From a virus (taxonomy: Duplodnaviria; Caudoviricetes), in IMG/VR virus record IMGVR_UViG_3300034071_002803, positions 1 through 58,047 of that record: a DNA stretch of 58,047 nucleotides. One strand, given 5' to 3'. Position numbers and translations under genes: made by a program. The notes beneath the pieces are model-generated. The model saw only the letters and a program-made list of their open reading frames with translations. It was not told where the DNA came from and did no database searches. Below are positions 2,630 to 44,752 of this stretch, one piece after another (the stretch's first letter is position 1; every line of letters starts with the position of its first letter).

Positions 2630-2747
2630 GAAGCGGGATTCCGATCGCTACATCTTTTCTGCCAGGTCTGGCGAAGAGCCAGTTAGCTGGAAGTGGAGCA
2701 TTATCGGCGCGATCATTGCTGGCGCGCTGGCAATGCTATTCCTGTGA
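2619..2747 (+). CDS. small membrane protein (42 aa; not in ORF track)
   Basis: MALKKRDSDRYIFSARSGEEPVSWKWSIIGAIIAGALAMLFL; its stop overlaps the methyltransferase start (GTGA). Confidence 0.6.
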   Translation: MALKKRDSDRYIFSARSGEEPVSWKWSIIGAIIAGALAMLFL

Positions 2748-3934
2748 GGCACGCCTCATTTTTTAGCGGCGTCGGCGGACTGGACATTGGTTTTACCCGC
2801 GCAGGGATGACCACGGTAAGCTTTAGCGAAATTGAGCCATATGCCTCTCAAATACTTACAGAACGATTCCCAGAGATACCAAACATTGGAGATATCACCA
2901 AGCTAGACGGGAAGGAGATACCTGATGCGGAAATCTGGACGGGGGGATTCCCCTGCCAAGACCTCAGCCTCGCAGGAAAGCGAGCCGGTTTTGATGGCGA
3001 AAGAAGTGTCCTCGCTTTTTCATTCCTCAACCTTGTGGAGCGACGTAAGCCTCGGTGGCTGGTGCTGGAAAACGTCCTTGGGCTCTTCTCTTCCTCTGGC
3101 GGTCGCGACTTCGGAAGGCTCCTCCGTGAAATGGATGAACTCGGGTACTCTGTTGCGTGGAGAACTTTCGATGCAAGATACTTCGGAGTCGCCCAACGAC
3201 GCCGTCGAGTGTTCATTGTCGCAAGTCTTATCGAAGAAGGCCCCGCAAAGGTTCTCTTTGAGTGCGAAGGCGAGTGCGGGCATCTTGGAACGAGCACGCA
3301 AGCGCGGAAAGAACCTGCCGGAGAGCCTGAAAGCCTCGCTCGAGAGTGGGAGCTTTTCAACCCGCCGTTTGACCCCGACAGAATGCGAAGTTCTTATGGG
3401 ATGGCCGAAGGGCTGGACAATCAGCAACTGGTGGAAGGCAAGACCGCGCAAGCGGAAGACCCACAACGGGTAGGGAATTTTGAGCTGTACGACTTTCCTG
3501 AAGACTCTGTCGCCCCAGCGCTAGCTTCTTCAAGGGCAAGAGACCAGATTGCGTACAGCATTCGAGAGGATGCCAAGGCAAACAACTTTTCGGCAAATGA
3601 AATTAAAGTTGCCAATGCCCTTCAAGCTCTTTGGCCAGGCGAGCAGTCACATCATGCCCAGACATTTATTGTTGGGTCTTCCTACGACGGATACAACCAA
3701 AAGCTTGACCCAGACGGACCACATCGAACCTTGAGGATTGGACGCGACTCTACAGACTTTGTTGTTGCAGAGGGCGGCGTATCTGACGACCCCCTGCTGC
3801 CAGAGGGGCTTGATATGCATCGGTACCGGGTGTGCGGAAACGGGATCGCTGCCCCAGTGGCAGAGTGGATTGCCAGGCGCATTATCGCCATAGATGCCCT
3901 CCAGGAAGCCCCAGGAGCCAAGGTAGGGCTTTAG
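2744..3934 (+). CDS. C5-cytosine DNA methyltransferase, large (alpha) subunit
   Basis: motifs I FSGVGG, IV GFPCQ, VI ENV, VIII QRRRRVF and X RYRVCGNG; motif IX is absent from this frame. Confidence 0.92.
   Translation: MRHASFFSGVGGLDIGFTRAGMTTVSFSEIEPYASQILTERFPEIPNIGDITKLDGKEIPDAEIWTGGFPCQDLSLAGKRAGFDGERSVLAFSFLNLVERRKPRWLVLENVLGLFSSSGGRDFGRLLREMDELGYSVAWRTFDARYFGVAQRRRRVFIVASLIEEGPAKVLFECEGECGHLGTSTQARKEPAGEPESLAREWELFNPPFDPDRMRSSYGMAEGLDNQQLVEGKTAQAEDPQRVGNFELYDFPEDSVAPALASSRARDQIAYSIREDAKANNFSANEIKVANALQALWPGEQSHHAQTFIVGSSYDGYNQKLDPDGPHRTLRIGRDSTDFVVAEGGVSDDPLLPEGLDMHRYRVCGNGIAAPVAEWIARRIIAIDALQEAPGAKVGL
2925..3473 (+). CDS. overlapping-frame C5-MTase small (beta) subunit carrying motif IX
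   Basis: +1 frame inside the MTase gene; AAGGAG RBS 7 nt upstream of ATG; RRLTPTECEVLMGWPKGWT matches motif IX. Confidence 0.8.
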   Translation: MRKSGRGDSPAKTSASQESEPVLMAKEVSSLFHSSTLWSDVSLGGWCWKTSLGSSLPLAVATSEGSSVKWMNSGTLLRGELSMQDTSESPNDAVECSLSQVLSKKAPQRFSLSAKASAGILERARKRGKNLPESLKASLESGSFSTRRLTPTECEVLMGWPKGWTISNWWKARPRKRKTHNG

Positions 3935-3935
3935 G

Positions 3936-4127
3936 GTGGCAAAGTACCAGCCAGACCAGGAAGGGCCGTCAAAACGCCGCAAAACCCCATTGCTGGGCAT
4001 TTGTAACTACTGCGGTGCACCCAAGCAGGTATATGAGCAGGAAGACGAGTACAAGGTTATCTTTAGGGCATGCCTAGAGTGCATTAGGGACATTGCAAAC
4101 GGGTATCGACCTAGCGAACCGTCTTGA
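3936..4127 (+). CDS. small zinc-ribbon protein
   Basis: CNYC...CLEC. Confidence 0.6.
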   Translation: MAKYQPDQEGPSKRRKTPLLGICNYCGAPKQVYEQEDEYKVIFRACLECIRDIANGYRPSEPS

Positions 4128-4722
4128 TTGACTCCCAGTCGCCAGCGTCCTGCCAGCCCCCAATGTAGAGGTCCCGAAGCTGGTGAATCTTATGGTACTG
4201 CGTTAGCACATCAACCATTGGGATCTCTGGTGAGAATCTTTCTGGGGAAATCTTATCGATTGCATGCCGCAGTGCATCAACATCAGTAAACTGATATAAC
4301 CCCATACAGACTGGCACACGCGGCTTGCCGCGAATCCATCCTCCAGCTGCTGGATAATCCCACTGCCGGTTGATTGGCATATTTGAAACGCCAACCCAAT
4401 CACCGACATCCATCACTGGTCCCTTAAGCAGGCTATCGGCAAAAGAAACAAGCAGTGTGCCGGTGTGCGTTGTCTTTGAAAGATAGTGCCGAAGTGCAGA
4501 GGCTGGGCCGCCGCCACCGTCGTATCCGTAAATCTCTGACCCCTCCCATTCGTTTGACGCAAGTGTCTCAACATCCTTGCTTAGGACGACCGCATCAAGG
4601 GGTACTTCAAGCCAGGCATCTGTATGCCACTTATGGACTGGCTTGTCTTTTGCCCACACAAGCATTTTGCAAATACCATCAAGCCTGGTTGACTTGCCAG
4701 CGGAAAGAACAACGACTCTCAT
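4111..4722 (-). CDS. sugar-phosphate nucleotidyltransferase-like protein
   Basis: VVLSAGKSTRL...K N-terminal motif; C-terminal WQDAG. Confidence 0.75.
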   Translation of the reverse strand: MRVVVLSAGKSTRLDGICKMLVWAKDKPVHKWHTDAWLEVPLDAVVLSKDVETLASNEWEGSEIYGYDGGGGPASALRHYLSKTTHTGTLLVSFADSLLKGPVMDVGDWVGVSNMPINRQWDYPAAGGWIRGKPRVPVCMGLYQFTDVDALRHAIDKISPERFSPEIPMVDVLTQYHKIHQLRDLYIGGWQDAGDWESIKTVR

Positions 4723-5396
4723 GATCCCTTAAGCTTTTTTGCGATTGCCGTAACTTGGTCTGGGTTAATCGGCTGCAAGAATTTCTTCTCAGCGATATTG
4801 TCTCGATATTCTTGCTCGATCTTTCTTACCATCTCTTTTGTTACAAGATATCCATAAGACTGGTGGCTTTCATGTATCCAGTTTGGAGAGAGTCGATATT
4901 CCCATGTAACCTCTGGTATGCAAACAAATGTTGCACCGGCAGCAACAGCCCTACACCAGAATGTCCAGTCATATCCATACTCTGTGCCAAACTTTCCAAT
5001 TTTGTCAAATAGGCTTTTTCTAACAAGCGCATTGTGGCTGATGTTGTTGTTCTCAAAAAGCTTGTCTGGGCTGAATGGAACGTTGTACCAGCCAGAGTAA
5101 TTCTCGCCCTTGGCATACGAGTAGACGACATCAACGCCGTCAACCGCCTCCTTCAGAAGTCGCTCAATATGGTGCGGCATAAGGATGTCGTCGTCATCAA
5201 GGATTTGCACCCACTCGGTTTGCACCATATCAATCAGGCCGTTCTTTATGAACGCTCCGCCCTTTCGATTCGTGTCAATGCCAATGTAGTGCTCGGCAAC
5301 TGGGGATGTTTGGGCTTCGACGCAGGCAATAGCCTCAAGCAAGAGGTGCTGCCGGTCTGGGACGGTTGCGGTGATAACGCTAACCGCGCTGCTCAT
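4719..5396 (-). CDS. glycosyltransferase family 2
   Basis: VSVITAT...EWVQILDDDD...YDW.FW pattern. Confidence 0.85.
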   Translation of the reverse strand: MSSAVSVITATVPDRQHLLLEAIACVEAQTSPVAEHYIGIDTNRKGGAFIKNGLIDMVQTEWVQILDDDDILMPHHIERLLKEAVDGVDVVYSYAKGENYSGWYNVPFSPDKLFENNNISHNALVRKSLFDKIGKFGTEYGYDWTFWCRAVAAGATFVCIPEVTWEYRLSPNWIHESHQSYGYLVTKEMVRKIEQEYRDNIAEKKFLQPINPDQVTAIAKKLKGS

Positions 5397-5397
5397 A

Positions 5398-5700
5398 TTA
5401 CAGGCCGAACTTTGTGATTAGCTCTTCGGCAAACAAGACCCCAGTTGTCGACTTTGGGGACTCGCCAGCCTTAATCACGACAAGTGTCGGGACGCTCTTG
5501 ATTTCAAATTCCCTGACCGCGTTTGGGTTTTTGTCTACATTCACTTTTACAATTTGTAGATTTGGCTTCATTGATGAAAGTCGCTCAAGCTCTGCGCTAA
5601 TCGCTCTGCATGGATGGCACCACGGTGCCCAGAAATCAATAATGGTGTCGCCCTTTGCGATAATGCTTGAAAGCGATTCTGTGCCGAGCTCAAAAATCAT
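5398..5700 (-). CDS. trxA: thioredoxin
   Basis: IDFWAPWCHPC, KVNVD, SVPT; AGGAG RBS before ATG 5700. Confidence 0.9.
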   Translation of the reverse strand: MIFELGTESLSSIIAKGDTIIDFWAPWCHPCRAISAELERLSSMKPNLQIVKVNVDKNPNAVREFEIKSVPTLVVIKAGESPKSTTGVLFAEELITKFGL

Positions 5701-5734
5701 TTGGCGTCTCCTGATGTGGTGTTGGGGGGTTTCT

Positions 5735-5762
5735 ATTATAACAAAATCCCCGCAGCTAGCAA
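5735..5762 (-). promoter_or_regulatory. sigma70 promoter for the trx-GT2-nucleotidyltransferase genes
   Basis: TTGCTA-N16-TATAAT with TG extension on the minus strand. Confidence 0.65.
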
Positions 5763-5770
5763 GTGCCATG

Positions 5771-6124
5771 TTATTTGCGGAAGAGCACTTGGTGCTCTAG
5801 GTTCGCCTCGACGCCATACGCTTCAAAAATCTGTATTGCTTGAGCTTCAGTCATATCTGCAGAATCAGTGCTTCCATACCAAGATGTCTTTAGTGTTCCG
5901 CCAGTAGGGTATCCATCTCGACCTATGTGCAACTCTGCCCAGATGTTAGGGCCGTTAAGCGCAAAGTACACATGCACAACGCGCTTTGGCTCAACAGAAA
6001 GGCACTCAAGAAATTCCTGGCTTTCCTTTTCGTTTTTTTCTTGCCACTCAGCACATTCCGCTACTGTCTTTTCAAGGATATTAAGAGCATCGCCCTCATT
6101 AATTTCGTTCACAGTATTTTTCAT
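5771..6124 (-). CDS. hypothetical protein
   Basis: 117-aa ORF, translationally coupled to its neighbour. Confidence 0.7.
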   Translation of the reverse strand: MKNTVNEINEGDALNILEKTVAECAEWQEKNEKESQEFLECLSVEPKRVVHVYFALNGPNIWAELHIGRDGYPTGGTLKTSWYGSTDSADMTEAQAIQIFEAYGVEANLEHQVLFRK

Positions 6125-6444
6125 GACTTCCTCAAGCTGTGGATGAAGATTGGGTTTTTAATTTCGCCGCTGCGAAGCGATCCGAGGATATTATACGAAA
6201 ACCACTCAAGGGCGTCCTGCCAGTGGTCGCAGGTGTCCTCGCAGGATTCCTCTTCGCAATTTAGCTTAAAGTTTTCTTGCAAGCCAGCAACACATTCGTC
6301 TCTGTCGTACACCGCAATGCTGTGGCTGATGTTTACGTCAAATACCTCACCGATTCCAACAAGGGCGTGTTCAATCTCGGGAAGGAAAATTACATCGTCG
6401 CCAACGACAAGCTGGTCGCCGTCTTCCATATCAAATACCGGCAC
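6121..6444 (-). CDS. hypothetical acidic phage protein
   Basis: AVYD..CV..L...EWFSYNILGS..GE..PIFI pattern typical of small phage proteins; AGGAGG RBS. Confidence 0.75.
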   Translation of the reverse strand: MPVFDMEDGDQLVVGDDVIFLPEIEHALVGIGEVFDVNISHSIAVYDRDECVAGLQENFKLNCEEESCEDTCDHWQDALEWFSYNILGSLRSGEIKNPIFIHSLRKS

Positions 6445-6452
6445 AAGCCCTC

Positions 6453-6848: not shown

Positions 6849-6850
6849 GG

Positions 6851-7429
6851 CTAAAAGCTGAACCTTGCAAGCTGGTATGCCTCTGCCCTGCCGTATCCGC
6901 ATCGATACCCCCACCAGGTGTCCTTCGCCAGCAGATGCTCTTTGGTGAAGTACTGGTTGTGCAACTGGCTCTTATGGCACCCCAGCGCCTTTGCCCTGGC
7001 GGCAACCAAATCCGGGGTTAGGTCAAGGTATGTATTTGGGTTGAATCCGTGCAGCGTGGACGGGGTGGCGTAGTAAGCAAGCGACGTATGTCGCCGCCTC
7101 AAAGCAGATAGGGTCGCTTCAGATACGGATCGGTGGTCCTGGTGGGTATCTTCTGGGTGTGGGGCGAGCACAAGGTCGTATTCAGACGAGAGCTCCGTAA
7201 TATCGTCAATAAGCTGACTATCGATCTGAACTGAGCCGTCCTTACGGTGCAGGAACTGTATGTTGGCATTAATGGTCTTGGCTGAAGCTTGTGCTTCCTT
7301 TGCTCTATCGCTAGAGCTTGTTCCAGTCACGATGACGATCTCAACGCTTTCTGCATGCACGCTGGACAGCAGACCCCAGCAGCCGTATTCCACATCATCT
7401 GGGTGAGGACCGATTGCGAGGATCTTCAT
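6851..7429 (-). CDS. PIG-L/LmbE family N-deacetylase
   Basis: AIGPHPDDVE, HPEDTHQDH and CHKSQ motifs. Confidence 0.9.
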   Translation of the reverse strand: MKILAIGPHPDDVEYGCWGLLSSVHAESVEIVIVTGTSSSDRAKEAQASAKTINANIQFLHRKDGSVQIDSQLIDDITELSSEYDLVLAPHPEDTHQDHRSVSEATLSALRRRHTSLAYYATPSTLHGFNPNTYLDLTPDLVAARAKALGCHKSQLHNQYFTKEHLLAKDTWWGYRCGYGRAEAYQLARFSF

Positions 7430-7619
7430 TCCCGATACTCCTGTATAGACCCACTGTTTGTGGGGTTTAGGTAGTTTTACGGTGACGGAAAACTACCGTT
7501 TTTTAAAAATTTTTTCCAAGCTTTGCACGAGCAGAGCTGACAGGCGGCCCGCCTAACCCTGACAACTTGATCAATTATAACTTTGCTATCAGTCAAACTC
7601 CACAAAGCCTATGGTTATT

Positions 7620-8393
7620 CTAGCTTGATGTTCTTTTATCTTTTAGTCTTACTTCTGGTGTGCCCCTGCTTGGGGATACATGATATGTAACAAATTCTGG
7701 GTATTTCTCCAAAAGGTACTTTACGCCCTCGGAAAGTGTTTCTTCAGTTCTAAATTCCTGCATTCCGCCCGGCTCACCAATATACTTAGTGTCAACCGCG
7801 ATGTACTCTAGCCTTAGAACGCCACCGTCCCTAAGATAAAATTTAATAGATTTTTCATAATCATCTTTGTCGTTTGTTCCAATTAGCTCACACTCGTCGT
7901 GCCTTATTATTACGCCGTACATGGTTCCTATAATAAAAGACAGGTCGACACGAATCTTTGGCTTCATAAAATATGGATTCATAACTGGGTAAATTCCCCA
8001 CAGGTTAAAGCCCAGGGTTTCCAGAGCAGAAAATGATTCAACAAATAGATCTGGAAGGCTTGGTACATCTTCAAGTGTTTTCTCGTCAATCATTTTAACT
8101 ACCCTAGTCAAATCGTCGTCGCAGAAAACAACTCTTGAGCCGACCGGGTATGCCCTAGCCAGGTAATTCCTGAAACCCATTGCCCCGGGCTTTGCTTCAT
8201 ACTTTATAAGCTGTCCGTAGGTTTCAGCATCAAGTGACTCAAGGTATTCTTGGTGCTGGTCTTCCCCGCGAACATGAACATGAATCTTTTCTGGCGGAAC
8301 TCCGCCCCTAATAAGTGTCGGGATTGTTTTGTTTTTTATGGTATCTGGTCTTCCGTATGACGGTATGGCAACCACATAATCGCTACTGTTCAT
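7620..8393 (-). CDS. TET-associated (GREB1-like, GT-A) glycosyltransferase 1
   Basis: VAIPSYGR...FCDDD...DKDDYE...GGVLR...PGGMQ pattern; directly downstream of the TET gene. Confidence 0.8.
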   Translation of the reverse strand: MNSSDYVVAIPSYGRPDTIKNKTIPTLIRGGVPPEKIHVHVRGEDQHQEYLESLDAETYGQLIKYEAKPGAMGFRNYLARAYPVGSRVVFCDDDLTRVVKMIDEKTLEDVPSLPDLFVESFSALETLGFNLWGIYPVMNPYFMKPKIRVDLSFIIGTMYGVIIRHDECELIGTNDKDDYEKSIKFYLRDGGVLRLEYIAVDTKYIGEPGGMQEFRTEETLSEGVKYLLEKYPEFVTYHVSPSRGTPEVRLKDKRTSS

Positions 8394-9288
8394 TTTTCTT
8401 GCTCCTTTCAATAAGCTCTGCAGCACTAGTCGCGGCAAGAATATCGTCTCTCATGCCCTTTTCTCTTGATGTGCGCTTTCTTCCCGCCCTCCTCTGCTCC
8501 ACGGCGTGCGTAAAGCAGTCTTTCATTCCCCGCAATGCATAGTAGACAATGCTGCAGCGATACCCATCTTCTTTTGTTACGGTCATTGGAGTTACTCCGT
8601 GAACAAGCTTAAGTCCGCAAAAAAATGCAGCGTATCCATCTCTGCAAGCTAATGTAATCCCGTATTCTGGTATGTGGAGATGGCCGCCATCAACTCCCTC
8701 GCGAACAACCGGCATTGCGGCCCATGTATCAAAATTAAACCCATCTCGATGGTAGGGAAGTTGCGCAGTCCAGTTGACCACGCCGCTAGTCCAAATTGAT
8801 TCTTCGGTCAGCTTCCAGTCCTTATCAACCTGCTGCATTGTTTCGTAATTTTCAGCATATATATGCGGGGCAAATTCGCTAAGCATCTCCCCCATCTCCA
8901 TAGAGACTTGGGCGAGCGCCGCATTTTGCATCGGAGACTCGGAGGCAAGAGATGTTGGCTTGCAGGCATCCCTAAGCTGTATGGGCTTCCTGGGTGCCAT
9001 TCCGAAGGTTCTGGATTGGGTCGTAAGCCCGGTTCCTTTGCGCGCCACCCCGCCAAACGGAACATCTATGGTTGTAACTGCCCACCTCAAAAGCTCAGTA
9101 GTTTTTGTAGGCAGCTTAAGATGGGCGACAATTGGCTCACCAGTCTCAGCATCAAAAATAATTTCGCTTTTGTTTACATTTGGCTTAATGTTATTGACTT
9201 CGGTTCCAACAAGCACATCCGCCTCTTCTGGCGTTATGAGCCTCTTAGCCGCGCTTACTGTAACTTCGCCAAACGAGTATCTAGCCAT
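8383..9288 (-). CDS. TET/JBP-family 2OG-Fe(II) dioxygenase
   Basis: TSGVVN..QLPYHRD (HxD), GGHL.IPEY, LVHGVTP (distal His), RCSIVYY (2OG-binding Arg). Confidence 0.87.
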   Translation of the reverse strand: MARYSFGEVTVSAAKRLITPEEADVLVGTEVNNIKPNVNKSEIIFDAETGEPIVAHLKLPTKTTELLRWAVTTIDVPFGGVARKGTGLTTQSRTFGMAPRKPIQLRDACKPTSLASESPMQNAALAQVSMEMGEMLSEFAPHIYAENYETMQQVDKDWKLTEESIWTSGVVNWTAQLPYHRDGFNFDTWAAMPVVREGVDGGHLHIPEYGITLACRDGYAAFFCGLKLVHGVTPMTVTKEDGYRCSIVYYALRGMKDCFTHAVEQRRAGRKRTSREKGMRDDILAATSAAELIERSKKNEQ

Positions 9289-9965
9289 TATTCTTGCTCT
9301 GGTGCCTTTTCTCCAGTCGCGTCCTCAATAAGCTTCAAGATGGCCTGGGCGTTGCTTTCAAGCTTGTGCTTCTTTCGGTATTCACCAAGCTTTTCTTGTA
9401 CCCAGGCATAAACAGCGTTCTGGTACTCAAGTGCCACAAGGCGCGTCAACTTTGAGCTGTACTTCTCTGCCAGCTCTGCAAGGCTAGGCATTGAGCCAGT
9501 GCCAGATGCCTTTTCGGAGATTTCTTTTGCAATCTTTTCAACGTCCTTGTTAAGCAAGCGCTCAAGGTCATCAAGATCGGAGAAATTAAAACCCGTGGAC
9601 TCAAGGATTGAGTCGTCAAGGGAATTAAGAGCGTCGTAAAGAACCTTTTCGTTCCAGCTTGAAAGGTCACCTGCACGGTTATCTGCAATTGCGTAAGCTC
9701 TTGCCCGGTCAAGATCGTCAAACGGAAGCTCATGAACCGCAATTTCGCTCCAGCCAATAGACTTTGCTGCCTCAAGCGTGCCGTTACCAGCGACAACGAC
9801 CCCACTTCTGGTCACAACAAGCGGCCTTTGCTGACCAAACTCTTTAAGCGAGGCAGCGATTGCCTGGATATTCTTCTCGTTGTGCTTGCGTGGGTTTTCG
9901 GTATCGTAAGTTAGATCGTCAACGCTAACGATTTTTACTTCAAACTTATTTGACTTGCCTGCCAT
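9288..9965 (-). CDS. ParB/Srx N-terminal-domain protein (modification-associated)
   Basis: NPRKH...SLKEFGQQRPLVV...VVAGNGTLEAA...AYAIADNR. Confidence 0.85.
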   Translation of the reverse strand: MAGKSNKFEVKIVSVDDLTYDTENPRKHNEKNIQAIAASLKEFGQQRPLVVTRSGVVVAGNGTLEAAKSIGWSEIAVHELPFDDLDRARAYAIADNRAGDLSSWNEKVLYDALNSLDDSILESTGFNFSDLDDLERLLNKDVEKIAKEISEKASGTGSMPSLAELAEKYSSKLTRLVALEYQNAVYAWVQEKLGEYRKKHKLESNAQAILKLIEDATGEKAPEQE

Positions 9966-9973
9966 AAATCCTC

Positions 9974-11074
9974 CTATATAATTCTTTTGGCTTTCGCCAT
10001 TGCTGAAGCTATTACCTGGTCCATATCATAATACCTGTACTCGCCAAGTCTACCACCAAGAACAAGTCGAAGCTCGGACTCGGCCCGCTCTTTGTATTTT
10101 GCGTACTTTTGGTGGTTTTTATCGTCTGCTATCGGGTAGTAAGCAGTTTTTCCAGGCTCCCAGGTGTCTGGGTATTCTCTGGTAATTACTGTTTTTGACA
10201 CATTTGCATAACTGTTAATATCAAAGTGCTTGTGCTCAGTAATTCTTGTCCAGGGAATATCAATTGAAGGGTAATTTACGACCGCATTACCTTGGAAATC
10301 TGGCGTGTCGAGCACTTCGTGTTCAAATTTAAGACCTCGGTACTCAAGTGGGCCGTACTCTTCAAACCTGAATAGCTCGTCAACACCTCCGCTAAAGACA
10401 ATTTGCTTGCCTTTCATTCTCCAGTAATCAAGATCTGCCCCAAAATCAGACTTAAGCTGAATATTCAAGCCCTCTGACATATTTTCTATCCACTTTGTAT
10501 ATCCACCAATAGGAATACCTTGATATTTACTATGGAAATAGTTGTCATCAAAGGTAAATCTGATTGGCAGGCGCGAAACGACAGTGTGGTCTATCTGGCT
10601 TGGAGACCTACCCCACTGTTTTGTGGTGTAGCCGTAGAAGAATTTTTCGTAAATAGTTTTTCCAACAGTTGAAAGAAGGTATTCCTCAACAGTTTTAGGC
10701 TTTTCAATCTTAACAATGTCTGCAGCAAGCGCATTTCTAGCTTCTAGGGGTGTTTTTGCCCTAAAAAGCTGGTACATGGTCATTAGATTAATTGGAAAAG
10801 AGTAAATTTCTTCCCCAAACCGTATTTTGGGTCTATTTACAAAATTATTAAAGCTTGCAAATCGATTGGCATAGGCCCATATGTCCTCACTGTTGGTGTG
10901 GAAGATATGCGGGCCGTGTACATGCACCTGGATTCCTTCAATCTCGTCAGAAATGATATTTCCGCCAATTCTGTCTCTTTTTTCTATTATCAGGCAGGTT
11001 TTTCCCGCGTCTGTTACCGTTCTGGCGAATGTAACGCCAAAAAGCCCAGCGCCAACAACTACAAAGTCATACAT
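9974..11074 (-). CDS. glf: UDP-galactopyranose mutase
   Basis: VVGAGLFG FAD motif, HVHGPHIFHT, GYTTKQWG, TRITEHKHF, GRLGEYRYYDMDQ. Confidence 0.95.
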   Translation of the reverse strand: MYDFVVVGAGLFGVTFARTVTDAGKTCLIIEKRDRIGGNIISDEIEGIQVHVHGPHIFHTNSEDIWAYANRFASFNNFVNRPKIRFGEEIYSFPINLMTMYQLFRAKTPLEARNALAADIVKIEKPKTVEEYLLSTVGKTIYEKFFYGYTTKQWGRSPSQIDHTVVSRLPIRFTFDDNYFHSKYQGIPIGGYTKWIENMSEGLNIQLKSDFGADLDYWRMKGKQIVFSGGVDELFRFEEYGPLEYRGLKFEHEVLDTPDFQGNAVVNYPSIDIPWTRITEHKHFDINSYANVSKTVITREYPDTWEPGKTAYYPIADDKNHQKYAKYKERAESELRLVLGGRLGEYRYYDMDQVIASAMAKAKRII

Positions 11075-11870
11075 TAGATCTCTCCCTAAGATTTACTATT
11101 GCATTTTGCAACTTCTCAACAGTTAAAACCTCATATTGTCTCATTGCCATCCACCATGTTCCGCCAGGAAGCTTGCCGTCCATATATTTTTGGACATAGA
11201 ACTTCCTTTCCTTATACGGGCTTTCAAACTCGGTTGCCAAAGCATCCTTTTGGCTTCCCTGGACTCTTGTGTGCTCTGCCGGCGAGGCATCTATGCACCC
11301 GATTCTTCCACCATGAATAGACCTTCCCTCTTTATGGTGGTATTTCTGTTGCCACCATTCTGGTATTCCCCAGCCATGCCCGTAAGGGGAATCATTGAAT
11401 ATCGGAAGGGACGCCTTGAACGCCCTGCTGGTCATCAGGAACGCACCAACATCAATCGTATTAAGCGTTCTAAATATGCCTCCCTTTTTTCTCCTAAACT
11501 TGCTATCTCCGGGCTCCATTACAAACCCAGGGCAAGCAAGATCAAAATCAAAATAATCAAATGTCTCAATAAACTTAAGTATGTTTTCCCTGCTCATATA
11601 TATGTCGTCATCCATAATCAAAAATCTTTTATACTGGTTAATTGTTGATTTATACTTTTTAAAAAAATCCCTTATTAGATGAAACTTGTTACCTTTTTGC
11701 TTTAATATATATTTAGCAGACTTCCAGAATTTATCAGAATAATCCTTTTCGCCCCAAAAACAAATTCCAACATCAATGCCATCTTCTGGCCTGAAGAGCT
11801 CCATTCGCTCGTGTTCGGACCAATACTCTTTTCCAGATCCAGTAACTATTAAAAGAAGTGTTTTATCCAT
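11067..11870 (-). CDS. putative glycosyltransferase (DUF707-like GT-A)
   Basis: FLIMDDDI DxD motif, DLACPG, HGWG, IGCIDA..AEHTR. Confidence 0.6.
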   Translation of the reverse strand: MDKTLLLIVTGSGKEYWSEHERMELFRPEDGIDVGICFWGEKDYSDKFWKSAKYILKQKGNKFHLIRDFFKKYKSTINQYKRFLIMDDDIYMSRENILKFIETFDYFDFDLACPGFVMEPGDSKFRRKKGGIFRTLNTIDVGAFLMTSRAFKASLPIFNDSPYGHGWGIPEWWQQKYHHKEGRSIHGGRIGCIDASPAEHTRVQGSQKDALATEFESPYKERKFYVQKYMDGKLPGGTWWMAMRQYEVLTVEKLQNAIVNLRERSNV

Positions 11871-11873
11871 AAT

Positions 11874-12827
11874 TTATTTGAATATATCCTTGCTTGGGTT
11901 AAAGCCTGTTTCTTTAATATACTTCACTCGCCATTCTCTTTGCTTTTCGTTGGATATAGTGAAATCTAAACTTGCAAGGTAATCTGCGTCAAGCCATTTT
12001 GCGGGCTTGAACAAGCCGGGGTATTTTCTCACAAGCTTTTCGCATGCTTCGTTTCTTTGCTCTGTTCTTTTTGTTTTGCCCTCAGCCTGCAAGCCACCAG
12101 GCATCTCGCCATATAGCGGCGCATCAAGAAGTAGCCATTGGTTGGTAAGCACTTTTCCATATACAAGCATGCATTTTGCCCAAAGGTCAACATCGTCCAG
12201 CTCGATGCTGTCATCAAGGGATATTCTTCGATCTTTTTTTATCAGCTGAAATGCTATCGGGTGCCTGCCCCAGTGCCACTTTGATTTCTCCCACCCCTTG
12301 ATCAGGTAAGGGTTTATTCCGTTGATCCAGTCCTCATCAGTCTCAAGCGTTGAGACAGCTGCCATTGAGTTAATCCCACAATATCCAATTTTTTCTTGAT
12401 CGCAGATAGAAATCATTTCCATTATCATTTTCTTGCCATCTTCGCTGTCTGGAGTGTGCGACCATAGATCACCGTATTCTTTTCTTCGTTTAATTTTTGG
12501 AAGGGTTGTTTTTGTCCAGTAGTGCTCTGGAACTACCGACCTAAATGTAACAATGTCGTCATCCAGGAAGAGCGCCCACTCCCCATCCTCAAGGGTTTCA
12601 TATATAAAATTCTGCTGTCTGACTTTTCCATTTCCTGGCCAGCCAGCCCTTACGCCAGAGACAATAATCTTAGCATTTGCCTTTATGGCTGCGTCCCTAT
12701 AAAGGTTTGCCTCATCTTCACTATGCAGCACAAGGAATTTTTCAAATCCCTGAATGCCCGGCGCATTAAGGGTAAAGCAAAACTCAGATCTTGCGTATGA
12801 AAAAATGAAAACCTTGGGCAAATTCAT
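11874..12827 (-). CDS. TET-associated (GREB1-like) glycosyltransferase 2
   Basis: FIFSYAR...LFLDDDI...DDVD...PGGLQ...LVRKYPG, paralogous to 7620-8393. Confidence 0.7.
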   Translation of the reverse strand: MNLPKVFIFSYARSEFCFTLNAPGIQGFEKFLVLHSEDEANLYRDAAIKANAKIIVSGVRAGWPGNGKVRQQNFIYETLEDGEWALFLDDDIVTFRSVVPEHYWTKTTLPKIKRRKEYGDLWSHTPDSEDGKKMIMEMISICDQEKIGYCGINSMAAVSTLETDEDWINGINPYLIKGWEKSKWHWGRHPIAFQLIKKDRRISLDDSIELDDVDLWAKCMLVYGKVLTNQWLLLDAPLYGEMPGGLQAEGKTKRTEQRNEACEKLVRKYPGLFKPAKWLDADYLASLDFTISNEKQREWRVKYIKETGFNPSKDIFK

Positions 12828-12842
12828 TGCCCAAGGTTATCA
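12810..12842 (-). promoter_or_regulatory. extended -10 promoter overlapped by a 12-bp inverted repeat
   Basis: TGA-TAACCT-N6-ATG; AACCTTGGGCAA-N5-TTGCCCAAGGTT. Confidence 0.5.
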
Positions 12843-12861
12843 CATTAAATCTAACTAATCG

Positions 12862-13320
12862 TTAAAATGGCAAGTCTTCAAAGCCCTCTTCTTCTCGCTG
12901 GGACTTTGCCTTACTGCCATACGAAGAGTCCTTACCGTAGCCTCCGCCACTGCTGTAAGAAGAGCCTCGGGACTGACCGCCAGCCGCCTTTTTCTCAAGC
13001 CCAGCCTTACCCCGCGATAGGAGCTGAAGAAACTTTGCCGTTACCTGAATATCTGTTCGCTCCTTGCCATTGCGGTCACTCCATGTGTTTAGCTCTGGGG
13101 TGCCCTCGATATACACAAGGTCTCCGGCGTTTAGGAGATCTGCGGCAAGGTCGGCTCGACCATCCCAGCATGTAATTGGAAACCACTGGGTATCTTCGTT
13201 TCCATCCTTATCCTTGCCCTTGTTAATCGCAACGCTAAAGTTTGTAACATTGCGACCGTTCTTGGTGGCTCGGGTCTCTGGCTGCTTGCCAACACGTCCA
13301 ATCAATTGAAGCTTAATCAT
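12862..13320 (-). CDS. ssb: single-stranded DNA-binding protein
   Basis: LIGRVGKQPE, FSVA, GDLVYIEG OB fold; acidic EDLPF tail. Confidence 0.95.
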   Translation of the reverse strand: MIKLQLIGRVGKQPETRATKNGRNVTNFSVAINKGKDKDGNEDTQWFPITCWDGRADLAADLLNAGDLVYIEGTPELNTWSDRNGKERTDIQVTAKFLQLLSRGKAGLEKKAAGGQSRGSSYSSGGGYGKDSSYGSKAKSQREEEGFEDLPF

Positions 13321-43862: not shown

Positions 43863-44752
43863 AGTCTGCGGCAATACTATCGGCAGGCTCGCCTGGCTCC
43901 ATTGCGGTAATCAAAGTATTAAAAGAATGCGGGTATAAGGTTCACGGGGTTGATATTGACCCAAGGACTCCGGCAAAAAATCTTGTTGACTCGTTTGAGC
44001 TTAAGTCAGATCTTGAGCTGCGTGGGATTGAATCGCTTCAAGGTTTTGACTTTGTCCTCTCCTCAACAATTGAAGAGTTTGAGCTAATCGAGCGATCTGG
44101 GGCAAGACATCTTCAGCCAGGGGCAAAGGTATATGAGTCGTGTAGGGATAAGCTTGCAACGGCTGGTATTGCCTCAATGCATGGAATTAATCACCCAGTA
44201 ACTAGCGCATCCTGGCCCGGAAACGGATATAGCGGATATGTTGTTAAGCCAAGATTTGGCAGGGGCTCAAAAGGTCTATACATATCCAAAAAGCCGGTTG
44301 GCGCATTTTCTCATTTTGCAGAGTCTAGCGAGCCAATGATTATTCAGGACTTTATTGAGGGAAGAGAGTTTAATGTTGACGGCATCGCGGAGGACGGCAA
44401 CGGTATTTCCTGGTTTTGCCACTATTCCGACCTTATGCGTGGCGGCATAACGACAAAAGCAGAAACATTTGAAAACAAAAACATTAACAGCCTAGTTAAA
44501 AGTATTTGCGAAAAGTTTAATCTGCACGGTCTTTTTAATATTGGCGGGATTCTTGACGACGGAGGAAAGCCTTGGCTTATAGAAATTAACCCAAGGCTTT
44601 CCCCTGGCATTGTAATTGGGCATCTTGCTGGGGCAAGGCCAGTCTCTGCCTGGGAAAGCTTTATTGCAAAATCCCCAATTTCGTCTTCAGACTACAAGGC
44701 AAAATCTGGGGTTGTGGTGAGCAGGTATTTTGAGGAAGCTGTTATTAAGTAA
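43859..44752 (+). CDS. ATP-grasp domain protein
   Basis: CRDK, VVKPRFGRGSKG, IQDFIEGREFNVD, LIEINPRL. Confidence 0.88.
   Translation: MKSAAILSAGSPGSIAVIKVLKECGYKVHGVDIDPRTPAKNLVDSFELKSDLELRGIESLQGFDFVLSSTIEEFELIERSGARHLQPGAKVYESCRDKLATAGIASMHGINHPVTSASWPGNGYSGYVVKPRFGRGSKGLYISKKPVGAFSHFAESSEPMIIQDFIEGREFNVDGIAEDGNGISWFCHYSDLMRGGITTKAETFENKNINSLVKSICEKFNLHGLFNIGGILDDGGKPWLIEINPRLSPGIVIGHLAGARPVSAWESFIAKSPISSSDYKAKSGVVVSRYFEEAVIK

What the first reader, a model, noticed from the sequence alone, without database searches (positions are those of the whole stretch)
7620..12827. TET-based cytosine hypermodification operon that includes UDP-galactopyranose mutase: candidate galactofuranosylated DNA
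Seen in sequence: a tightly coupled minus-strand run of TAGT-2, DUF707-like GT, glf, ParB-like protein, TET/JBP dioxygenase and TAGT-1. A C5-MTase (2744-3934) and a DUF1599/Nmad1 gene lie nearby, and galE is elsewhere (44745-45710). Established: phage C5-MTase + TET + TET-associated GT pathways make 5mC, then 5hmC, then glycosyl-hmC; Glf converts UDP-Galp to UDP-Galf; GalE supplies UDP-Galp. Inference: with three GTs and a Galf donor in one operon, the phage may attach Galf or a Galf-containing oligosaccharide to hmC. Galf is known from cell-wall glycans; I do not know of it on DNA.
Basis: partly seen in the sequence, partly recalled or inferred. Interest (0 to 1): 0.9.

Follow-up and report, generated by a model that had tools for sequence, protein, structure and literature searches.

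The report
Phage DNA-sugar operon with furanose mutase
A lake-water phage carries a gene cluster that most likely oxidises thymine (and perhaps methylated cytosine) in its own finished DNA and then decorates it with sugars, probably including the unusual five-membered-ring sugar galactofuranose; it is an untested new variant of a known way in which phages camouflage their DNA.

Summary
The minus-strand run 12827-7620 encodes TAGT-2, a DUF707-like GT-A glycosyltransferase, a UDP-galactopyranose mutase (Glf) that passes its equivalog cut-off, a ParB-like protein, a TET/JBP dioxygenase and TAGT-1. The run continues into a PIG-L deacetylase, a thioredoxin, a GT2 and a nucleotidyltransferase. An intact C5-MTase and a GalE are also present.

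The dioxygenase belongs to the ParB-coupled phage clade: 82 of 84 relatives have a ParB, and 78 have it directly upstream. That clade was shown in 2026 to contain ParB-dependent thymine dioxygenases. Most relatives lack any C5-MTase, including complete genomes that carry ParB-TET-TAGT. A base-J-like glycosylated 5hmU is therefore the better-supported product, with 5hmC as a possible second substrate.

Glf always sits beside the DUF707-like GT in the phage's kin (three of three contigs where the neighbour is visible). This marks that GT as the candidate galactofuranosyltransferase.

None of 50 ParB-TET viral records has Glf, and none of 89 viral Glf loci has TET, so the linkage is lineage-specific. 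UDP-Galf use for DNA glycosylation was already proposed in print for Rhizobium phage RL38J1. This scan has also noted Glf beside TET, TAGT or ParB on other DNA before.

Verdict: new variant of a known kind, biochemically untested.

The parts
11874..12827 (-). TAGT-2: a divergent TET-associated GT-A DNA glycosyltransferase (317 aa). It carries R13, the DDD motif and a DDV motif.
   Evidence: PF20691 scores 17.2 bits, under the cut-off. Of 40 relatives, 33 match PF20691. hhalign to TAGT-1 gives 98.9% probability. The AF2 model has pLDDT 89. The top BFVD fold matches are phage TAGT-domain proteins and a beta-glucosyl-HMC-alpha-glucosyltransferase. Kin loci L098 and L099 keep it at 70-72% identity next to the DUF707-like GT.
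11067..11870 (-). DUF707-like GT-A glycosyltransferase (267 aa), the candidate galactofuranosyltransferase.
   Evidence: Only 9 homologues were found in 5.8 billion proteins. Of 10 family members, 6 match DUF707 and 6 weakly match GT2. The AF2 model (pLDDT 67) matches GT-A glycosyltransferases with E about 2e-6 and TM 0.45-0.5. It lies next to Glf in L096, L097 and L098. More distant homologues lie about 1 kb from Glf in 3 of 89 viral Glf loci.
9974..11074 (-). UDP-galactopyranose mutase (Glf, 366 aa), which makes UDP-galactofuranose.
   Evidence: PF03275 scores 237 bits. TIGR00031 equivalog scores 346.2 against a cut-off of 303.75. Full-length match to PDB 1i8t, E 7.6e-112. Kin copies are 75-79% identical.
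9288..9965 (-). ParB-like protein (225 aa), the probable activator of the dioxygenase.
   Evidence: ParB_N covers residues 9-84 at 24.2 bits; PHROG ParB-like at 1e-34. A homologue lies directly upstream of TET in 78 of 84 related loci. The complex model with the dioxygenase scores 0.80 against a best control of 0.00.
8383..9288 (-). 5-methylpyrimidine dioxygenase (TET/JBP, 301 aa) of the ParB-coupled clade. It has a 43-aa C-terminal extension after the conserved Cys258.
   Evidence: Tet_JBP scores 33.9 and 35.6 bits; phrog_6059 at 2.6e-79. H180, D182, H230 and R244 are invariant. There are 1058 homologues. The closest cultured relatives are actinophage genes next to ParB, one of them annotated 'thymidine hydroxylase'.
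7620..8438 (-). TAGT-1: a TET-associated GT-A DNA glycosyltransferase. The probable start is the ATG at 8393. It is the likely base-proximal transferase.
   Evidence: PF20691 scores 36.6 bits, over the cut-off; phrog_25200 at 1e-44 and phrog_842. A TAGT-family gene lies directly downstream of TET in 16 of 84 related loci.
6851..7429 (-). PIG-L/BshB-like de-N-acetylase, a candidate tailoring enzyme for an N-acetylhexosamine.
   Evidence: PF02585 scores 65.3 bits. BshB1 model scores 54.5 bits, under its cut-off. It is conserved at 82% identity downstream of TET in kin locus L097.
5771..6444 (-). Two small genes of unknown function (117 and 107 aa), conserved with the cluster.
   Evidence: No family hit. 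Homologues at 72% and 41% identity sit in the same positions in L097.
5398..5769 (-). Thioredoxin.
   Evidence: PF00085 scores 75 bits; 75% identity in L097. Burke 2021 lists 'redoxin' among genes that co-occur with phage TET clusters.
4719..5396 (-). GT2-family (GT-A) glycosyltransferase, the fourth GT of the run.
   Evidence: PF00535 scores 28.8 bits; 76% identity in L097. No TM-like segment.
4111..4722 (-). MobA-like nucleotidyltransferase, probably for sugar activation.
   Evidence: PF12804 scores 29.9 bits; 50% identity in L097. 'CTP transferase' genes occur in the phage TET clusters of Burke 2021 and Pyle 2023.
2693..3934 (+). C5-cytosine DNA methyltransferase, convergent with the end of the operon. 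It is a possible source of a second substrate (5mC) or an independent anti-restriction methylase.
   Evidence: PF00145 scores 182 bits. Motifs I, IV, VI, VIII and X were seen in the translation. None of the 80 loci of its viral kin has a TET.
44745..45710 (-). UDP-glucose 4-epimerase (GalE), which supplies UDP-Galp. It lies 34 kb away, next to a virion-fibre glycosylation cassette.
   Evidence: TIGR01179 equivalog scores 309.6 against a cut-off of 262.3. GalE homologues lie within 10 kb of Glf in 34 of 89 viral Glf loci.
12810..12838 (-). A 12-bp-stem hairpin followed by a T-run, between SSB and TAGT-2. It covers the TAGT-2 start codon and is a possible attenuator or terminator at the head of the cluster.
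   Evidence: Best terminator-like site in 3800-13500. The start codon at 12827 is taken.

Best explanation
This is a post-replicative DNA-hypermodification operon of a lake-water tailed phage.

Inferred by homology: the ParB-like protein activates the TET/JBP-type 5-methylpyrimidine dioxygenase. The dioxygenase hydroxylates thymine in finished double-stranded DNA to 5-hydroxymethyluracil. Because the phage also has a C5-MTase, it probably hydroxylates some 5mC to 5hmC as well.

Inferred by family membership and synteny: a soluble TAGT-type GT-A glycosyltransferase then puts the first sugar on the hydroxymethyl group, as the glucosyltransferase JGT does for base J. TAGT-1, directly downstream of the dioxygenase, is the most likely candidate.

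Shown by sequence for the enzyme identities, inferred for the flux: GalE and Glf convert host UDP-glucose to UDP-galactopyranose and then to UDP-galactofuranose.

Inferred from the conserved Glf-GT pairing: the DUF707-like GT-A enzyme welded to Glf transfers Galf onto the DNA-linked glycan or onto the base.

Speculative: TAGT-2, the GT2, the nucleotidyltransferase and the PIG-L deacetylase extend and tailor the glycan, for example by de-N-acetylating a HexNAc.

The expected product is a base-J-like oligosaccharide-bearing pyrimidine that protects the DNA from host nucleases.
For: **Gene identities.**

**ParB-coupled clade.**
- In 84 viral loci with TET homologues (43-53% identity), ParB is present in 82 and lies directly upstream in 78.
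- The C-terminal extension after the conserved Cys is kept. O'Toole 2026 gives this as specific to ParB-dependent enzymes (section 11).
- The complex model supports binding of ParB to the dioxygenase. The score is 0.80 and the best of 3 controls is 0.00. That mark was reached by 58 of 80 solved complexes and 2 of 110 mismatched pairs; these counts hold only roughly because my own alignments were used. The runs agree in at least 93% of contacts, and the partner's pLDDT is at least 76.
- The interface uses dioxygenase residues 108-127 and 261-287.

**Thymine as the substrate.**
- ParB-dependent members made 5hmU in E. coli and in vitro (PMC13229309, sections 6 and 7).
- C5-MTase is present in only 7 of 50 related records, and in 5 of the 15 that are at least 90% complete.
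- All 11 searched records with ParB-TET-TAGT lack a C5-MTase, 3 of them complete genomes.
- The closest cultured relative (Rhodococcus phage Tonitrus, 50% identity) has ParB, TET, aGPT-Pplase2 and a kinase. One mycobacteriophage record calls the gene 'thymidine hydroxylase'.
- The window has no thymidylate-synthase homologue, so there is no pre-replicative route.

**DNA glycosyltransferases.**
- TAGT-1 and TAGT-2 carry the R...DDD...(E/D)DY-type motifs that Pyle 2023 describes for phage GT-A DNA glycosyltransferases related to JGT.
- A TAGT-family gene lies directly downstream of TET in 16 of 84 loci.

**The Galf module.**
- Kin contigs have these orders: L096 Glf-GT; L097 Glf-GT-ParB-TET-...-PIG-L-Trx-GT2-NTP transferase; L098 TAGT2-GT-Glf-GT; L099 SSB-TAGT2-GT.
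- The genes are tightly coupled.
- All four GTs lack TM-like segments, so the acceptor is cytoplasmic.

**Precedent.** Sugar-nucleotide-tailoring partners of DNA glycosyltransferases are known: epimerases and cytidylyltransferases in Pyle 2023, and Glf in RL38J1 in Lee 2026.
Against: No biochemical data exist for this phage.

- The C5-MTase is intact and only 4.4 kb away, and 5mYOX176 handled 5mC as well as T in vitro. 5hmC could therefore be a major or even the main product.
- The Glf link is confined to one lineage. Glf was in 0 of 84 TET loci and 0 of 50 TET records. TET and the TAGT-2 family were in 0 of 89 viral Glf loci. TAGT over the cut-off was in 0 of 42 Glf records.
- The DUF707-like GT plus Glf pair also occurs in large-virus glycan clusters with no TET seen (L210, L212, L214). 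The pair is therefore not specific to DNA.
- The glf, DUF707-like GT and TAGT genes have a lower GC content (36-45%) than their neighbours (about 49%). This fits a recent insertion.
- The window has a second glycosylation cassette among the fibre genes, and GalE lies there, not here.
- The model of the DUF707-like GT is only moderately confident (pLDDT 67).
- I could not align the dioxygenase to the characterised 5mYOX176, 5mYOX97 or 5mYOX43 sequences, because they are in supplements that are closed. Clade assignment therefore rests on ParB synteny, the C-terminal extension and the complex model.
Confidence: 0.45

Rival explanations
1. The C5-MTase writes 5mC, the dioxygenase converts it to 5hmC, and the glycosyltransferases (with UDP-Galf) glycosylate 5hmC. 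Cytosine, not thymine, is the modified base.
For: - An intact C5-MTase lies 4.4 kb from the dioxygenase.
- Phage C5-MT/TET/GT pathways that make glycosyl-5hmC are established (Burke 2021; Pyle 2023).
- Thioredoxin and nucleotidyltransferase genes accompany such clusters.
- The nearest TET sister group includes L026, which has a C5-MTase 46% identical to the window's.
- 5mYOX176 oxidises 5mC in vitro.
Against: - The C5-MTase is not adjacent and lies on the other strand.
- None of the 80 loci of its kin has a TET.
- C5-MTase occurs in only 7 of 50 related TET records and is scattered on the TET tree.
- Complete ParB-TET-TAGT genomes lack it.
- The characterised 5mC dioxygenases (clades A and B) are described as having an adjacent, co-evolving C5-MTase and are ParB-independent. 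Clade C1 enzymes were inactive on 5mC in Burke 2021, although they were tested without ParB.
Confidence: 0.2
2. Only the ParB-TET-TAGT core modifies DNA. Glf and the DUF707-like GT (perhaps with the GT2, the deacetylase and the nucleotidyltransferase) are an inserted cassette. That cassette glycosylates another cytoplasmic acceptor, such as virion proteins, together with the fibre-linked glycosylation genes and GalE.
For: - A DUF707-like GT plus Glf occurs in large-virus glycan clusters with eukaryote-type GT7, GT10 and GT90 genes and no TET.
- No Glf was found in 50 related TET records.
- The cassette has a low GC content.
- GalE and a GlcNAc-transferase sit beside fibre genes 34 kb away.
- GalE homologues lie near Glf in 34 of 89 viral loci with no DNA-modification genes detected.
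Against: - In all four kin contigs the cassette is embedded between TAGT-2 and ParB-TET, in the replication module (SSB, RusA, DnaC), not among structural genes.
- Its order changes (GT-Glf or Glf-GT) but its place beside the DNA glycosyltransferases does not.
- The genes overlap or are separated by 3-8 nt.
- The scan's earlier notes list Glf next to TET, TAGT or ParB in at least 8 other genomes. These notes are unchecked here.
Confidence: 0.25
3. The mutase works on another UDP-sugar, such as UDP-GalNAc (as in the Campylobacter jejuni enzyme) or UDP-arabinose. The DNA sugar would then be a different furanose, for example GalNAcf that the PIG-L enzyme then de-N-acetylates.
For: - The second-best solved relative is the C. 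jejuni mutase 4mo2, E 9.6e-110.
- A PIG-L-type de-N-acetylase is conserved in the cluster.
- HexNAc on DNA is known from phage clusters.
Against: - The protein passes the UDP-Galp mutase equivalog cut-off.
- At the two positions that I recall as conferring UDP-GalNAc specificity in the C. jejuni enzyme (both Arg), the window has His and Ser. It matches E. coli Glf at the first of them (alignment). The residue roles are recalled, and my literature search for them found nothing.
Confidence: 0.08

Closest known systems
ParB-dependent phage thymine dioxygenases (5mYOX clade C1, e.g. 5mYOX176 with ParB176; O'Toole et al., PNAS 2026, PMC13229309)
   Same: - A TET/JBP dioxygenase with a cognate ParB-like gene directly upstream.
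- A C-terminal extension on the dioxygenase.
- A short ParB with only the N-terminal ParB domain recognised.
- A predicted ParB-dioxygenase interface that uses the insertion region and the C-terminal extension.
- No adjacent C5-MTase.
   Different: - The described ParB-dependent subclass is 'consistently linked' with kinases, amino-acid:DNA transferases and GATases. Here the partners are glycosyltransferases and sugar-nucleotide enzymes.
- A C5-MTase lies within 5 kb.
- Activity and ParB dependence are untested.
Phage C5-MT/5mYOX/glycosyltransferase clusters making glycosyl-5hmC (Burke et al. 2021, PMC8256090; Pyle et al. 2023, bioRxiv 10.1101/2023.12.21.572611)
   Same: - Post-replicative route.
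- GT-A 'TAGT' DNA glycosyltransferases with R...DDD...(E/D)DY motifs.
- Several glycosyltransferases that build di- or trisaccharides.
- Partner enzymes that supply special sugar nucleotides (epimerase, cytidylyltransferase).
- Redoxin genes.
   Different: - Those dioxygenases (clades A and B) have an adjacent, co-evolving C5-MTase and need no ParB.
- No mutase or furanose donor is mentioned in the main text of Pyle 2023 (0 occurrences) or of Burke 2021 (0 occurrences of 'mutase').
Base J of kinetoplastids (JBP1/2 thymine hydroxylase plus JGT glucosyltransferase)
   Same: Thymine is oxidised to 5hmU in DNA by a TET/JBP enzyme, then O-glycosylated by a GT-A enzyme. Pyle 2023 finds JGT to be the top structural relative of the phage GT-A DNA glycosyltransferases.
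   Different: - Base J carries a single beta-glucose.
- It involves no ParB, no Glf and no extra glycosyltransferases.
- It has a eukaryotic regulatory role rather than serving as phage camouflage.
Glycosylated 5-hydroxycytosine of Rhizobium phage RL38J1 / Pootjesviridae (Lee et al., NAR 2026, PMC13326640)
   Same: A phage-encoded UDP-galactopyranose mutase is proposed to supply UDP-Galf for a DNA glycan whose base-proximal sugar is galactose. Several DNA glycosyltransferases are involved.
   Different: - That route is pre-replicative: a thymidylate-synthase homologue makes 5hodCMP, and the sugar is ether-linked directly to C5.
- The window has no thymidylate-synthase homologue and uses a TET route.
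- The Glf proteins are only 35-37% identical.
- Those glycosyltransferases are not DUF707-like.
T-even glucosyl-/gentiobiosyl-5hmC (alpha/beta-glucosyltransferases, beta-glucosyl-HMC-alpha-glucosyltransferase)
   Same: Sugar camouflage of a hydroxymethylpyrimidine. TAGT-1 matches phrog_842, and the TAGT-2 model matches a phage 'beta-glucosyl-HMC-alpha-glucosyl-transferase'.
   Different: - Pre-replicative 5hmdCTP synthesis.
- UDP-glucose is the only donor.
- No dioxygenase, ParB or mutase.

Membership tests
ParB-dependent phage 5mYOX (clade C1, O'Toole 2026) | TET/JBP 2OG-Fe(II) dioxygenase core with the HxD...H iron ligands and the 2OG-binding Arg | tested here: met
   Tet_JBP scores 33.9 bits (cut-off 34.9) by hmmscan and 35.6 bits in the six-frame search. 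H180, D182, H230 and R244 are invariant in 37 sequences. Weak profile matches to Naegleria Tet and TET2 lie in the His/Arg region.
ParB-dependent phage 5mYOX (clade C1, O'Toole 2026) | Cognate ParB-like gene co-located with the dioxygenase | tested here: met
   ParB ends where the dioxygenase starts, with a 1-nt overlap. The same arrangement is found in 78 of 84 related loci. The complex model scores 0.80 against a best control of 0.00.
ParB-dependent phage 5mYOX (clade C1, O'Toole 2026) | Extended C-terminus beyond the last Cys conserved in both subclasses | tested here: inconclusive
   There are 43 residues after the invariant C258, with conserved positions A262, E264 and R272. These residues lie in the predicted ParB interface. 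The reference sequences (5mYOX176 and 5mYOX97) were not available for alignment, so the equivalence of the Cys is inferred.
ParB-dependent phage 5mYOX (clade C1, O'Toole 2026) | [quoted passage not shown] | tested here: inconclusive
   The protein has 225 aa. Only ParB_N (residues 9-84) was recognised by Pfam, and only N-terminal matches came from NCBIfam. No structure was made of it alone.
ParB-dependent phage 5mYOX (clade C1, O'Toole 2026) | Oxidises thymine in dsDNA only when ParB is present | not testable with these tools
   This needs co-expression and nucleoside analysis.
Phage 5mC dioxygenases, clades A/B (Burke 2021) | Adjacent, co-evolving C5-MTase (clade I/II) that writes the substrate | tested here: not met
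   The C5-MTase is 4.4 kb away on the other strand. None of the 80 loci of its kin has a TET. C5-MTase occurs in 7 of 50 related TET records and is scattered on the tree.
TAGT, TET-associated glycosyltransferase (PF20691) | Match to the family model over its cut-off, and the R...DDD...(E/D)DY active-site motifs | tested here: met
   - TAGT-1 scores 36.6 bits against a cut-off of 27.5.
- TAGT-2 scores only 17.2 bits, but 33 of 40 relatives match the family, hhalign gives 98.9% probability, and the fold matches TAGT-domain phage proteins at TM 0.76-0.86.
- The motifs were seen.
TAGT, TET-associated glycosyltransferase (PF20691) | Transfers a sugar to a 5-hydroxymethylpyrimidine in DNA | not testable with these tools
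   This is inferred from synteny only: a TAGT gene lies directly downstream of TET in 16 of 84 loci.
UDP-galactopyranose mutase (TIGR00031 / PF03275) | Full-length match over the equivalog cut-off, with an N-terminal FAD-binding GxGxxG | tested here: met
   346.2 bits against a cut-off of 303.75. Residues 1-365 align to 1-363 of E. coli UGM 1i8t. G8 and G10 are invariant in 11 phage Glfs.
DUF707 (PF05212) / GT-A fold glycosyltransferases | Match to PF05212; GT-A Rossmann-like fold with a DxD motif | tested here: inconclusive
   - The window protein itself gives no DUF707 hit at E up to 1.
- Of 10 family members, 6 do (best E 2.9e-6).
- A distant homologue in L212 scores 49.4 bits, over the cut-off.
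- The GT-A fold is supported, but the model has pLDDT 67.
- The DDD motif is invariant.
Pootjesviridae-type glycosyl-5hoC pathway (Lee 2026) | Thymidylate-synthase homologue that makes 5hodCMP | tested here: not met
   No PF00303 match was found in the window. The record is estimated to be 67% complete, so absence from the whole genome is not proven.
UDP-glucose 4-epimerase GalE (TIGR01179) | Match over the equivalog cut-off | tested here: met
   309.6 bits against a cut-off of 262.3.

The most novel reading that the evidence does not exclude
The phage glycosylates two bases at once. Its ParB-activated dioxygenase hydroxylates both thymine and the 5mC written by its own C5-MTase. The four soluble glycosyltransferases then build on these an oligosaccharide that contains galactofuranose and a de-N-acetylated amino sugar. 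This would be a base-J-like, positively charged, furanose-bearing DNA glycan not described for any DNA.
Probability: 0.2. Interest if true: 0.8.

Novelty: new variant of a known kind. Interest (0 to 1): 0.6.

Why it matters
Phage DNA glycans decide which restriction, CRISPR and type IV systems can cut a phage. They also supply enzymes for epigenetic sequencing chemistry.

A TET-route cluster that brings its own furanose donor (GalE plus Glf) and a dedicated GT-A partner would add galactofuranose to the list of sugars on DNA. Galactofuranose is absent from mammals. The cluster would also give a candidate function to an orphan GT-A family (DUF707-like).

In addition, it would be a ParB-dependent thymine dioxygenase coupled to glycosylation, that is, a bacterial-virus counterpart of base J.

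The case is directly testable with six to eight genes in E. coli.

Tried and rejected
**Searches that led nowhere**
- blastn of the 5.2-kb region against 50,697 GenBank phage records found only four short matches (1-2% of the query) inside glf. There is no close cultured relative.
- Sequence searches of the PDB with the DUF707-like GT gave 0 hits. With TAGT-2 they gave one chance hit, E 1.9. A profile search with the TAGT-2 family also gave nothing significant.
- The DUF707-like GT has no relative in IMG/VR by pattern scan and none in GenBank phages.
- The TAGT-2 model against the PDB gave only generic GT-A and nucleotidyltransferase matches. TarP, reported by Pyle 2023 for other phage GT-A enzymes, was not among the 50 rows shown.

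**Survey for glf-TET linkage**
- Glf was in 0 of 84 TET loci and 0 of 50 TET records.
- TET was in 0 of 10 Glf records and 0 of 89 Glf loci.
- TAGT over the cut-off was in 0 of 42 Glf records. Eight of the 50 loci I asked for were not held and so were not searched.
- Only the best 80 of 212 TET relatives and the best 80 of at least 554 Glf relatives were sampled.

**Ideas considered and rejected**
- That the C5-MTase co-evolves with the dioxygenase: rejected.
- A membrane or polysaccharide acceptor for the glycosyltransferases: made unlikely by the absence of TM-like segments.

**Papers**

What I saw of each paper:

| Paper | What was seen |
|---|---|
| PMC13326640 | passages, abstract, section 28 |
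| PMC13229309 | abstract, sections 5, 6, 7, 11, 12, 13 |
| PMC8256090 | passages only |
| 10.1101/2023.12.21.572611 | abstract, passages, sections 7 and 8 |
| all other listed papers | search listings only |

Searches behind the 'not in print' statements:

| Terms | Result |
|---|---|
| 'galactofuranose' + 'hypermodification' + 'bacteriophage' | 2 papers hold all three terms; 1 is listed (PMC13326640, also held as a bioRxiv preprint) |
| '5mYOX' + 'mutase' | 0 papers |
| 'TET' + 'phage' + 'UDP-galactopyranose mutase' | 68 papers, 15 listed, only Lee 2026 relevant |
| 'DUF707' | 20 papers, 15 listed, none with an established function in the listing |
| UNGM specificity | 0 papers |

Supplements are closed and I did not ask for them. 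Dataset S10 of O'Toole 2026 and the supplementary tables of Burke 2021 and Pyle 2023 hold the reference 5mYOX sequences and domain co-occurrence tables. They may already list a mutase next to 5mYOX, which would bear on both the clade assignment and the novelty claim.

**Sequencing runs**
- No RNA holder was listed.
- Laying four lake-water or aquatic DNA runs gave only short pieces. In three of the runs these were 151-285 nt with no differences. No contig bridged two genes, so the runs say nothing on linkage or expression.

**Complex prediction**
It was used once, for ParB with the dioxygenase, and passed. It shows what the model supports, not that the proteins bind.

Full report
**What the window is.** It is a 58,047-base linear IMG/VR virus record that CheckV estimates to be 67% complete. 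It carries a portal, a prohead protease and an SU10-type capsid gene, so it is a tailed phage. The finding lies in a long minus-strand run inside the replication module. SSB, RusA and a DnaC-like loader lie directly upstream.

**Observation.**
- Glf is unambiguous: PF03275 at 237 bits, the TIGR00031 equivalog at 346.2 bits against a cut-off of 303.75, and a full-length alignment to E. coli UGM 1i8t.
- The dioxygenase scores at the Tet_JBP cut-off: 33.9 bits by hmmscan and 35.6 bits in the six-frame search, against a cut-off of 34.9. It also matches phrog_6059 at 2.6e-79. The HxD, H and R residues are invariant in 37 relatives.
- TAGT-1 passes PF20691.
- TAGT-2 does not pass by itself (17.2 bits). 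However, 33 of 40 of its relatives do, and its family profile aligns to TAGT-1 at 98.9% probability. A confident model (pLDDT 89) finds phage TAGT-domain proteins at TM 0.76-0.86 and a beta-glucosyl-HMC-alpha-glucosyltransferase.
- The 267-aa protein between TAGT-2 and Glf has only nine homologues in 5.8 billion proteins. Six of the ten family members match DUF707 and six weakly match GT2. Its model, confident mainly in the N-terminal half, matches GT-A glycosyltransferases. 'DUF707-like GT' is therefore a fair label.
- The genes overlap or are 3-8 nt apart.
- The run goes on beyond the finding. After a 190-nt gap come a PIG-L deacetylase, two small conserved unknowns, a thioredoxin, a GT2 and a MobA-like nucleotidyltransferase.
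- The C5-MTase (2693-3934, + strand) shows motifs I, IV, VI, VIII and X.
- GalE passes its equivalog cut-off.
- The DUF1599 claim rests on a 17-bit sub-threshold hit.

I collected 84 viral loci that encode relatives of the dioxygenase at 43-53% identity: 4 from a single-protein scan and the best 80 of 212 from an alignment scan.
- A ParB homologue is present in 82 of them and lies directly upstream on the same strand in 78.
- A C5-MTase homologue is present in 5.
- Glf is present in none.

Whole-record searches of 50 of these loci found a C5-MTase in 7, and in 5 of the 15 that are at least 90% complete. A TAGT-family gene lies directly downstream of the dioxygenase in 16 of the 84 loci. Eleven of those records were among the 50 searched, and all 11 lack a C5-MTase, including three complete genomes. 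In those phages the glycosyltransferase can only be fed from thymine, unless a host methylase supplies 5mC.

On a FastTree of the dioxygenases, the C5-MTase-positive loci are scattered. The window and its kin L097 form a long branch, sister to a group that includes a complete genome without a C5-MTase. Conversely, none of 80 viral loci that encode kin of the window's C5-MTase (the best 80 of 121) has a TET.

The literature fits this.
- O'Toole et al. 2026 (PMC13229309; abstract and sections 5, 6, 7, 11, 12, 13 read) define ParB-associated clade C1 5mYOXs as ParB-dependent thymine dioxygenases.
- They show 5hmU formation in E. coli and in vitro.
- They describe an extended C-terminus found only in this subclass.
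- They note that only 6% of mined 5mYOX pathways co-occur with a C5-MTase.

The window's enzyme has 43 residues after the invariant Cys258.

A complex model of the window's ParB and dioxygenase supports binding.
- The score is 0.80 and the best of three controls is 0.00.
- That mark was reached by 58 of 80 solved complexes and 2 of 110 mismatched pairs. These counts hold only roughly, because my own alignments were used.
- The runs agree in at least 93% of contacts, and the partner's pLDDT is at least 76.
- The interface falls on dioxygenase residues 108-127 and on the C-terminal extension 261-287.

In GenBank, the closest cultured relatives are actinophage and cyanophage genes (100 records). 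Rhodococcus phage Tonitrus (50% identity) has ParB, the dioxygenase, an aGPT-Pplase2 protein and a kinase. One mycobacteriophage record names the gene 'thymidine hydroxylase'. The window has no thymidylate-synthase homologue.

Against a thymine-only reading: the C5-MTase is intact, and 5mYOX176 oxidised T and 5mC comparably in vitro. Both bases may therefore be hit.

**Is Glf part of the DNA pathway?** A metagenome scan with the DUF707-like GT family found four kin contigs.
- L096 reads Glf then GT.
- L097 reads Glf, GT, ParB (87% identity), dioxygenase (86%), a 323-aa weakly GT-B-like gene in place of TAGT-1, PIG-L, two unknowns, thioredoxin, GT2, nucleotidyltransferase.
- L098 reads TAGT-2, GT, Glf, GT.
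- L099 reads SSB, TAGT-2, GT.

Glf therefore lies next to the DUF707-like GT in three of the three contigs where its neighbour is visible. The pair changes order but stays between TAGT-2 and ParB. That marks the GT as the likely user of UDP-Galf and ties the pair to the DNA glycosyltransferases in this lineage.

All four glycosyltransferases of the run lack TM-like segments. The acceptor is therefore cytoplasmic: DNA or protein, not an envelope glycan.

The evidence against:
- The link does not extend beyond this lineage.
- Three of 89 viral Glf loci have a distant DUF707-family gene about 1 kb from Glf. These sit in a large-virus cluster with PolB, RecA, GT7, GT10, GT90, a deacetylase, a HAD protein and a nucleotidyltransferase, with no TET or thymidylate synthase in the fragments. 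The pair is therefore a general Galf module, not a DNA-specific one.
- The glf, GT and TAGT genes have 36-45% GC against about 49% around them. This suggests insertion around a conserved ParB-dioxygenase core.
- GalE lies 34 kb away, next to a fibre-linked glycosylation cassette.

**Comparison with what is known.**
- Phage 5mYOX-glycosyltransferase clusters, and their dependence on partner sugar-nucleotide enzymes, are established. Pyle 2023 describes epimerase-dependent and cytidylyltransferase-dependent glycosyltransferases, mono- to trisaccharides, HexNAc, heptose and Kdo. It also describes GT-A enzymes related to the base-J glucosyltransferase.
- A mutase or furanose donor is not mentioned in that preprint's main text.
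- Lee et al. 2026 propose that the Glf of Rhizobium phage RL38J1 supplies UDP-Galf for its galactose-proximal 5-hydroxycytosine glycan. The idea of Galf on DNA is therefore in print, on a different base and by a different route.
- Among GenBank phages, Glf occurs in 89 records: Rhizobium, Agrobacterium, Aeromonas, Streptococcus and others. No organism first word shown in that output is shared with the dioxygenase list, but three Glf groups were not named in the output.
- This scan's own earlier notes list Glf next to TET, TAGT or ParB in at least eight other genomes. I did not check them. If they hold, the association recurs and DNA becomes the more likely acceptor.

The best-supported mechanism has three steps:
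1. A ParB-activated thymine (and possibly 5mC) dioxygenase makes the hydroxymethylpyrimidine.
2. TAGT-type enzymes glycosylate it.
3. The Glf/DUF707-like GT pair adds galactofuranose, and further tailoring follows.

My estimates:

| Claim | Probability |
|---|---|
| The cluster modifies DNA | about 0.85 |
| Thymine is a main substrate | about 0.6-0.7 |
| Galf ends up on DNA | about 0.55 |
| The whole statement | 0.45 |

It is a new variant of a known kind.

Noticed in passing
window 12810-12838 (-): A perfect 12-bp-stem hairpin with a T-run lies between SSB and TAGT-2. It contains the TAGT-2 start codon. It could terminate or attenuate transcription into the modification operon, or mask the start codon.
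   Followed up: no
L098:498-2729: In a kin metagenome contig, Glf is flanked on both sides by paralogues of the DUF707-like GT (GT, Glf, GT). In L096 and L097 the order is Glf then GT, the reverse of the window.
   Followed up: partly
L097:3479-4450: In the closest kin contig (ParB 87% and dioxygenase 86% identical), TAGT-1 is replaced by an unrelated 323-aa gene. That gene has only a weak GT-B-like hit (Glyco_trans_1_2, 17.6 bits). The glycosyltransferase next to the dioxygenase is therefore swapped between close relatives.
   Followed up: partly
L212:1999-13188: A fragment of a large virus carries these genes in one strand run: PolB, a polysaccharide deacetylase, a RecA-like protein, GT7, a GT10-like protein, DUF707 (49 bits), GT90, Glf, a HAD protein and a nucleotidyltransferase. 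It is a big glycan cluster inside a replication module, and its acceptor is unknown.
   Followed up: partly
GenBank phage records; phrog_6059: Homologues of this TET/JBP dioxygenase are widely annotated as 'queuine tRNA-ribosyltransferase', both in PHROGs and in RefSeq mycobacteriophage records. This looks like a propagated misannotation. One newer record says 'thymidine hydroxylase'.
   Followed up: no
G070:36742-37017, G071:24706-24981, G084:22060-22500, G096:26846-27238: In 4 of 42 Glf-bearing viral records, a sub-threshold TAGT-like match (13.7-22.3 bits) lies 2.7-4.5 kb from Glf. The distances were computed from the contig ranges. These may be divergent GT-A partners of Glf.
   Followed up: no
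window 7400-8200 and 10200-12600: GC content drops to 36-45% over TAGT-1 and over glf, the DUF707-like GT and TAGT-2, against about 49% in ParB, the dioxygenase and the flanking genes. This is consistent with glycosylation genes acquired from a lower-GC source.
   Followed up: no
window 2261-2629 (+): The ORF directly upstream of the C5-MTase gives a sub-threshold DUF1599/Nmad1 hit: 17 bits against a cut-off of 25, at 2498-2566.
   Followed up: partly
window 6453-6914 (-): This 153-aa ORF overlaps the end of the PIG-L gene and has the only TM-like segment in the run. It has no counterpart in kin locus L097, where PIG-L is followed directly by the next conserved gene. It may not be a real gene.
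   Followed up: partly
GenBank phages: Nineteen Aeromonas phage records and many Rhizobium, Agrobacterium and Sinorhizobium phage records carry Glf homologues. In the Streptococcus suis prophage records, glf sits at the very end of the record and may be host flank.
   Followed up: no
window 6800-12900 in runs X2, X3, X5: Short contigs identical to the window occur at low depth in lake-water metagenomes of other studies and years. The phage, or a near-identical one, therefore recurs in lakes.
   Followed up: partly
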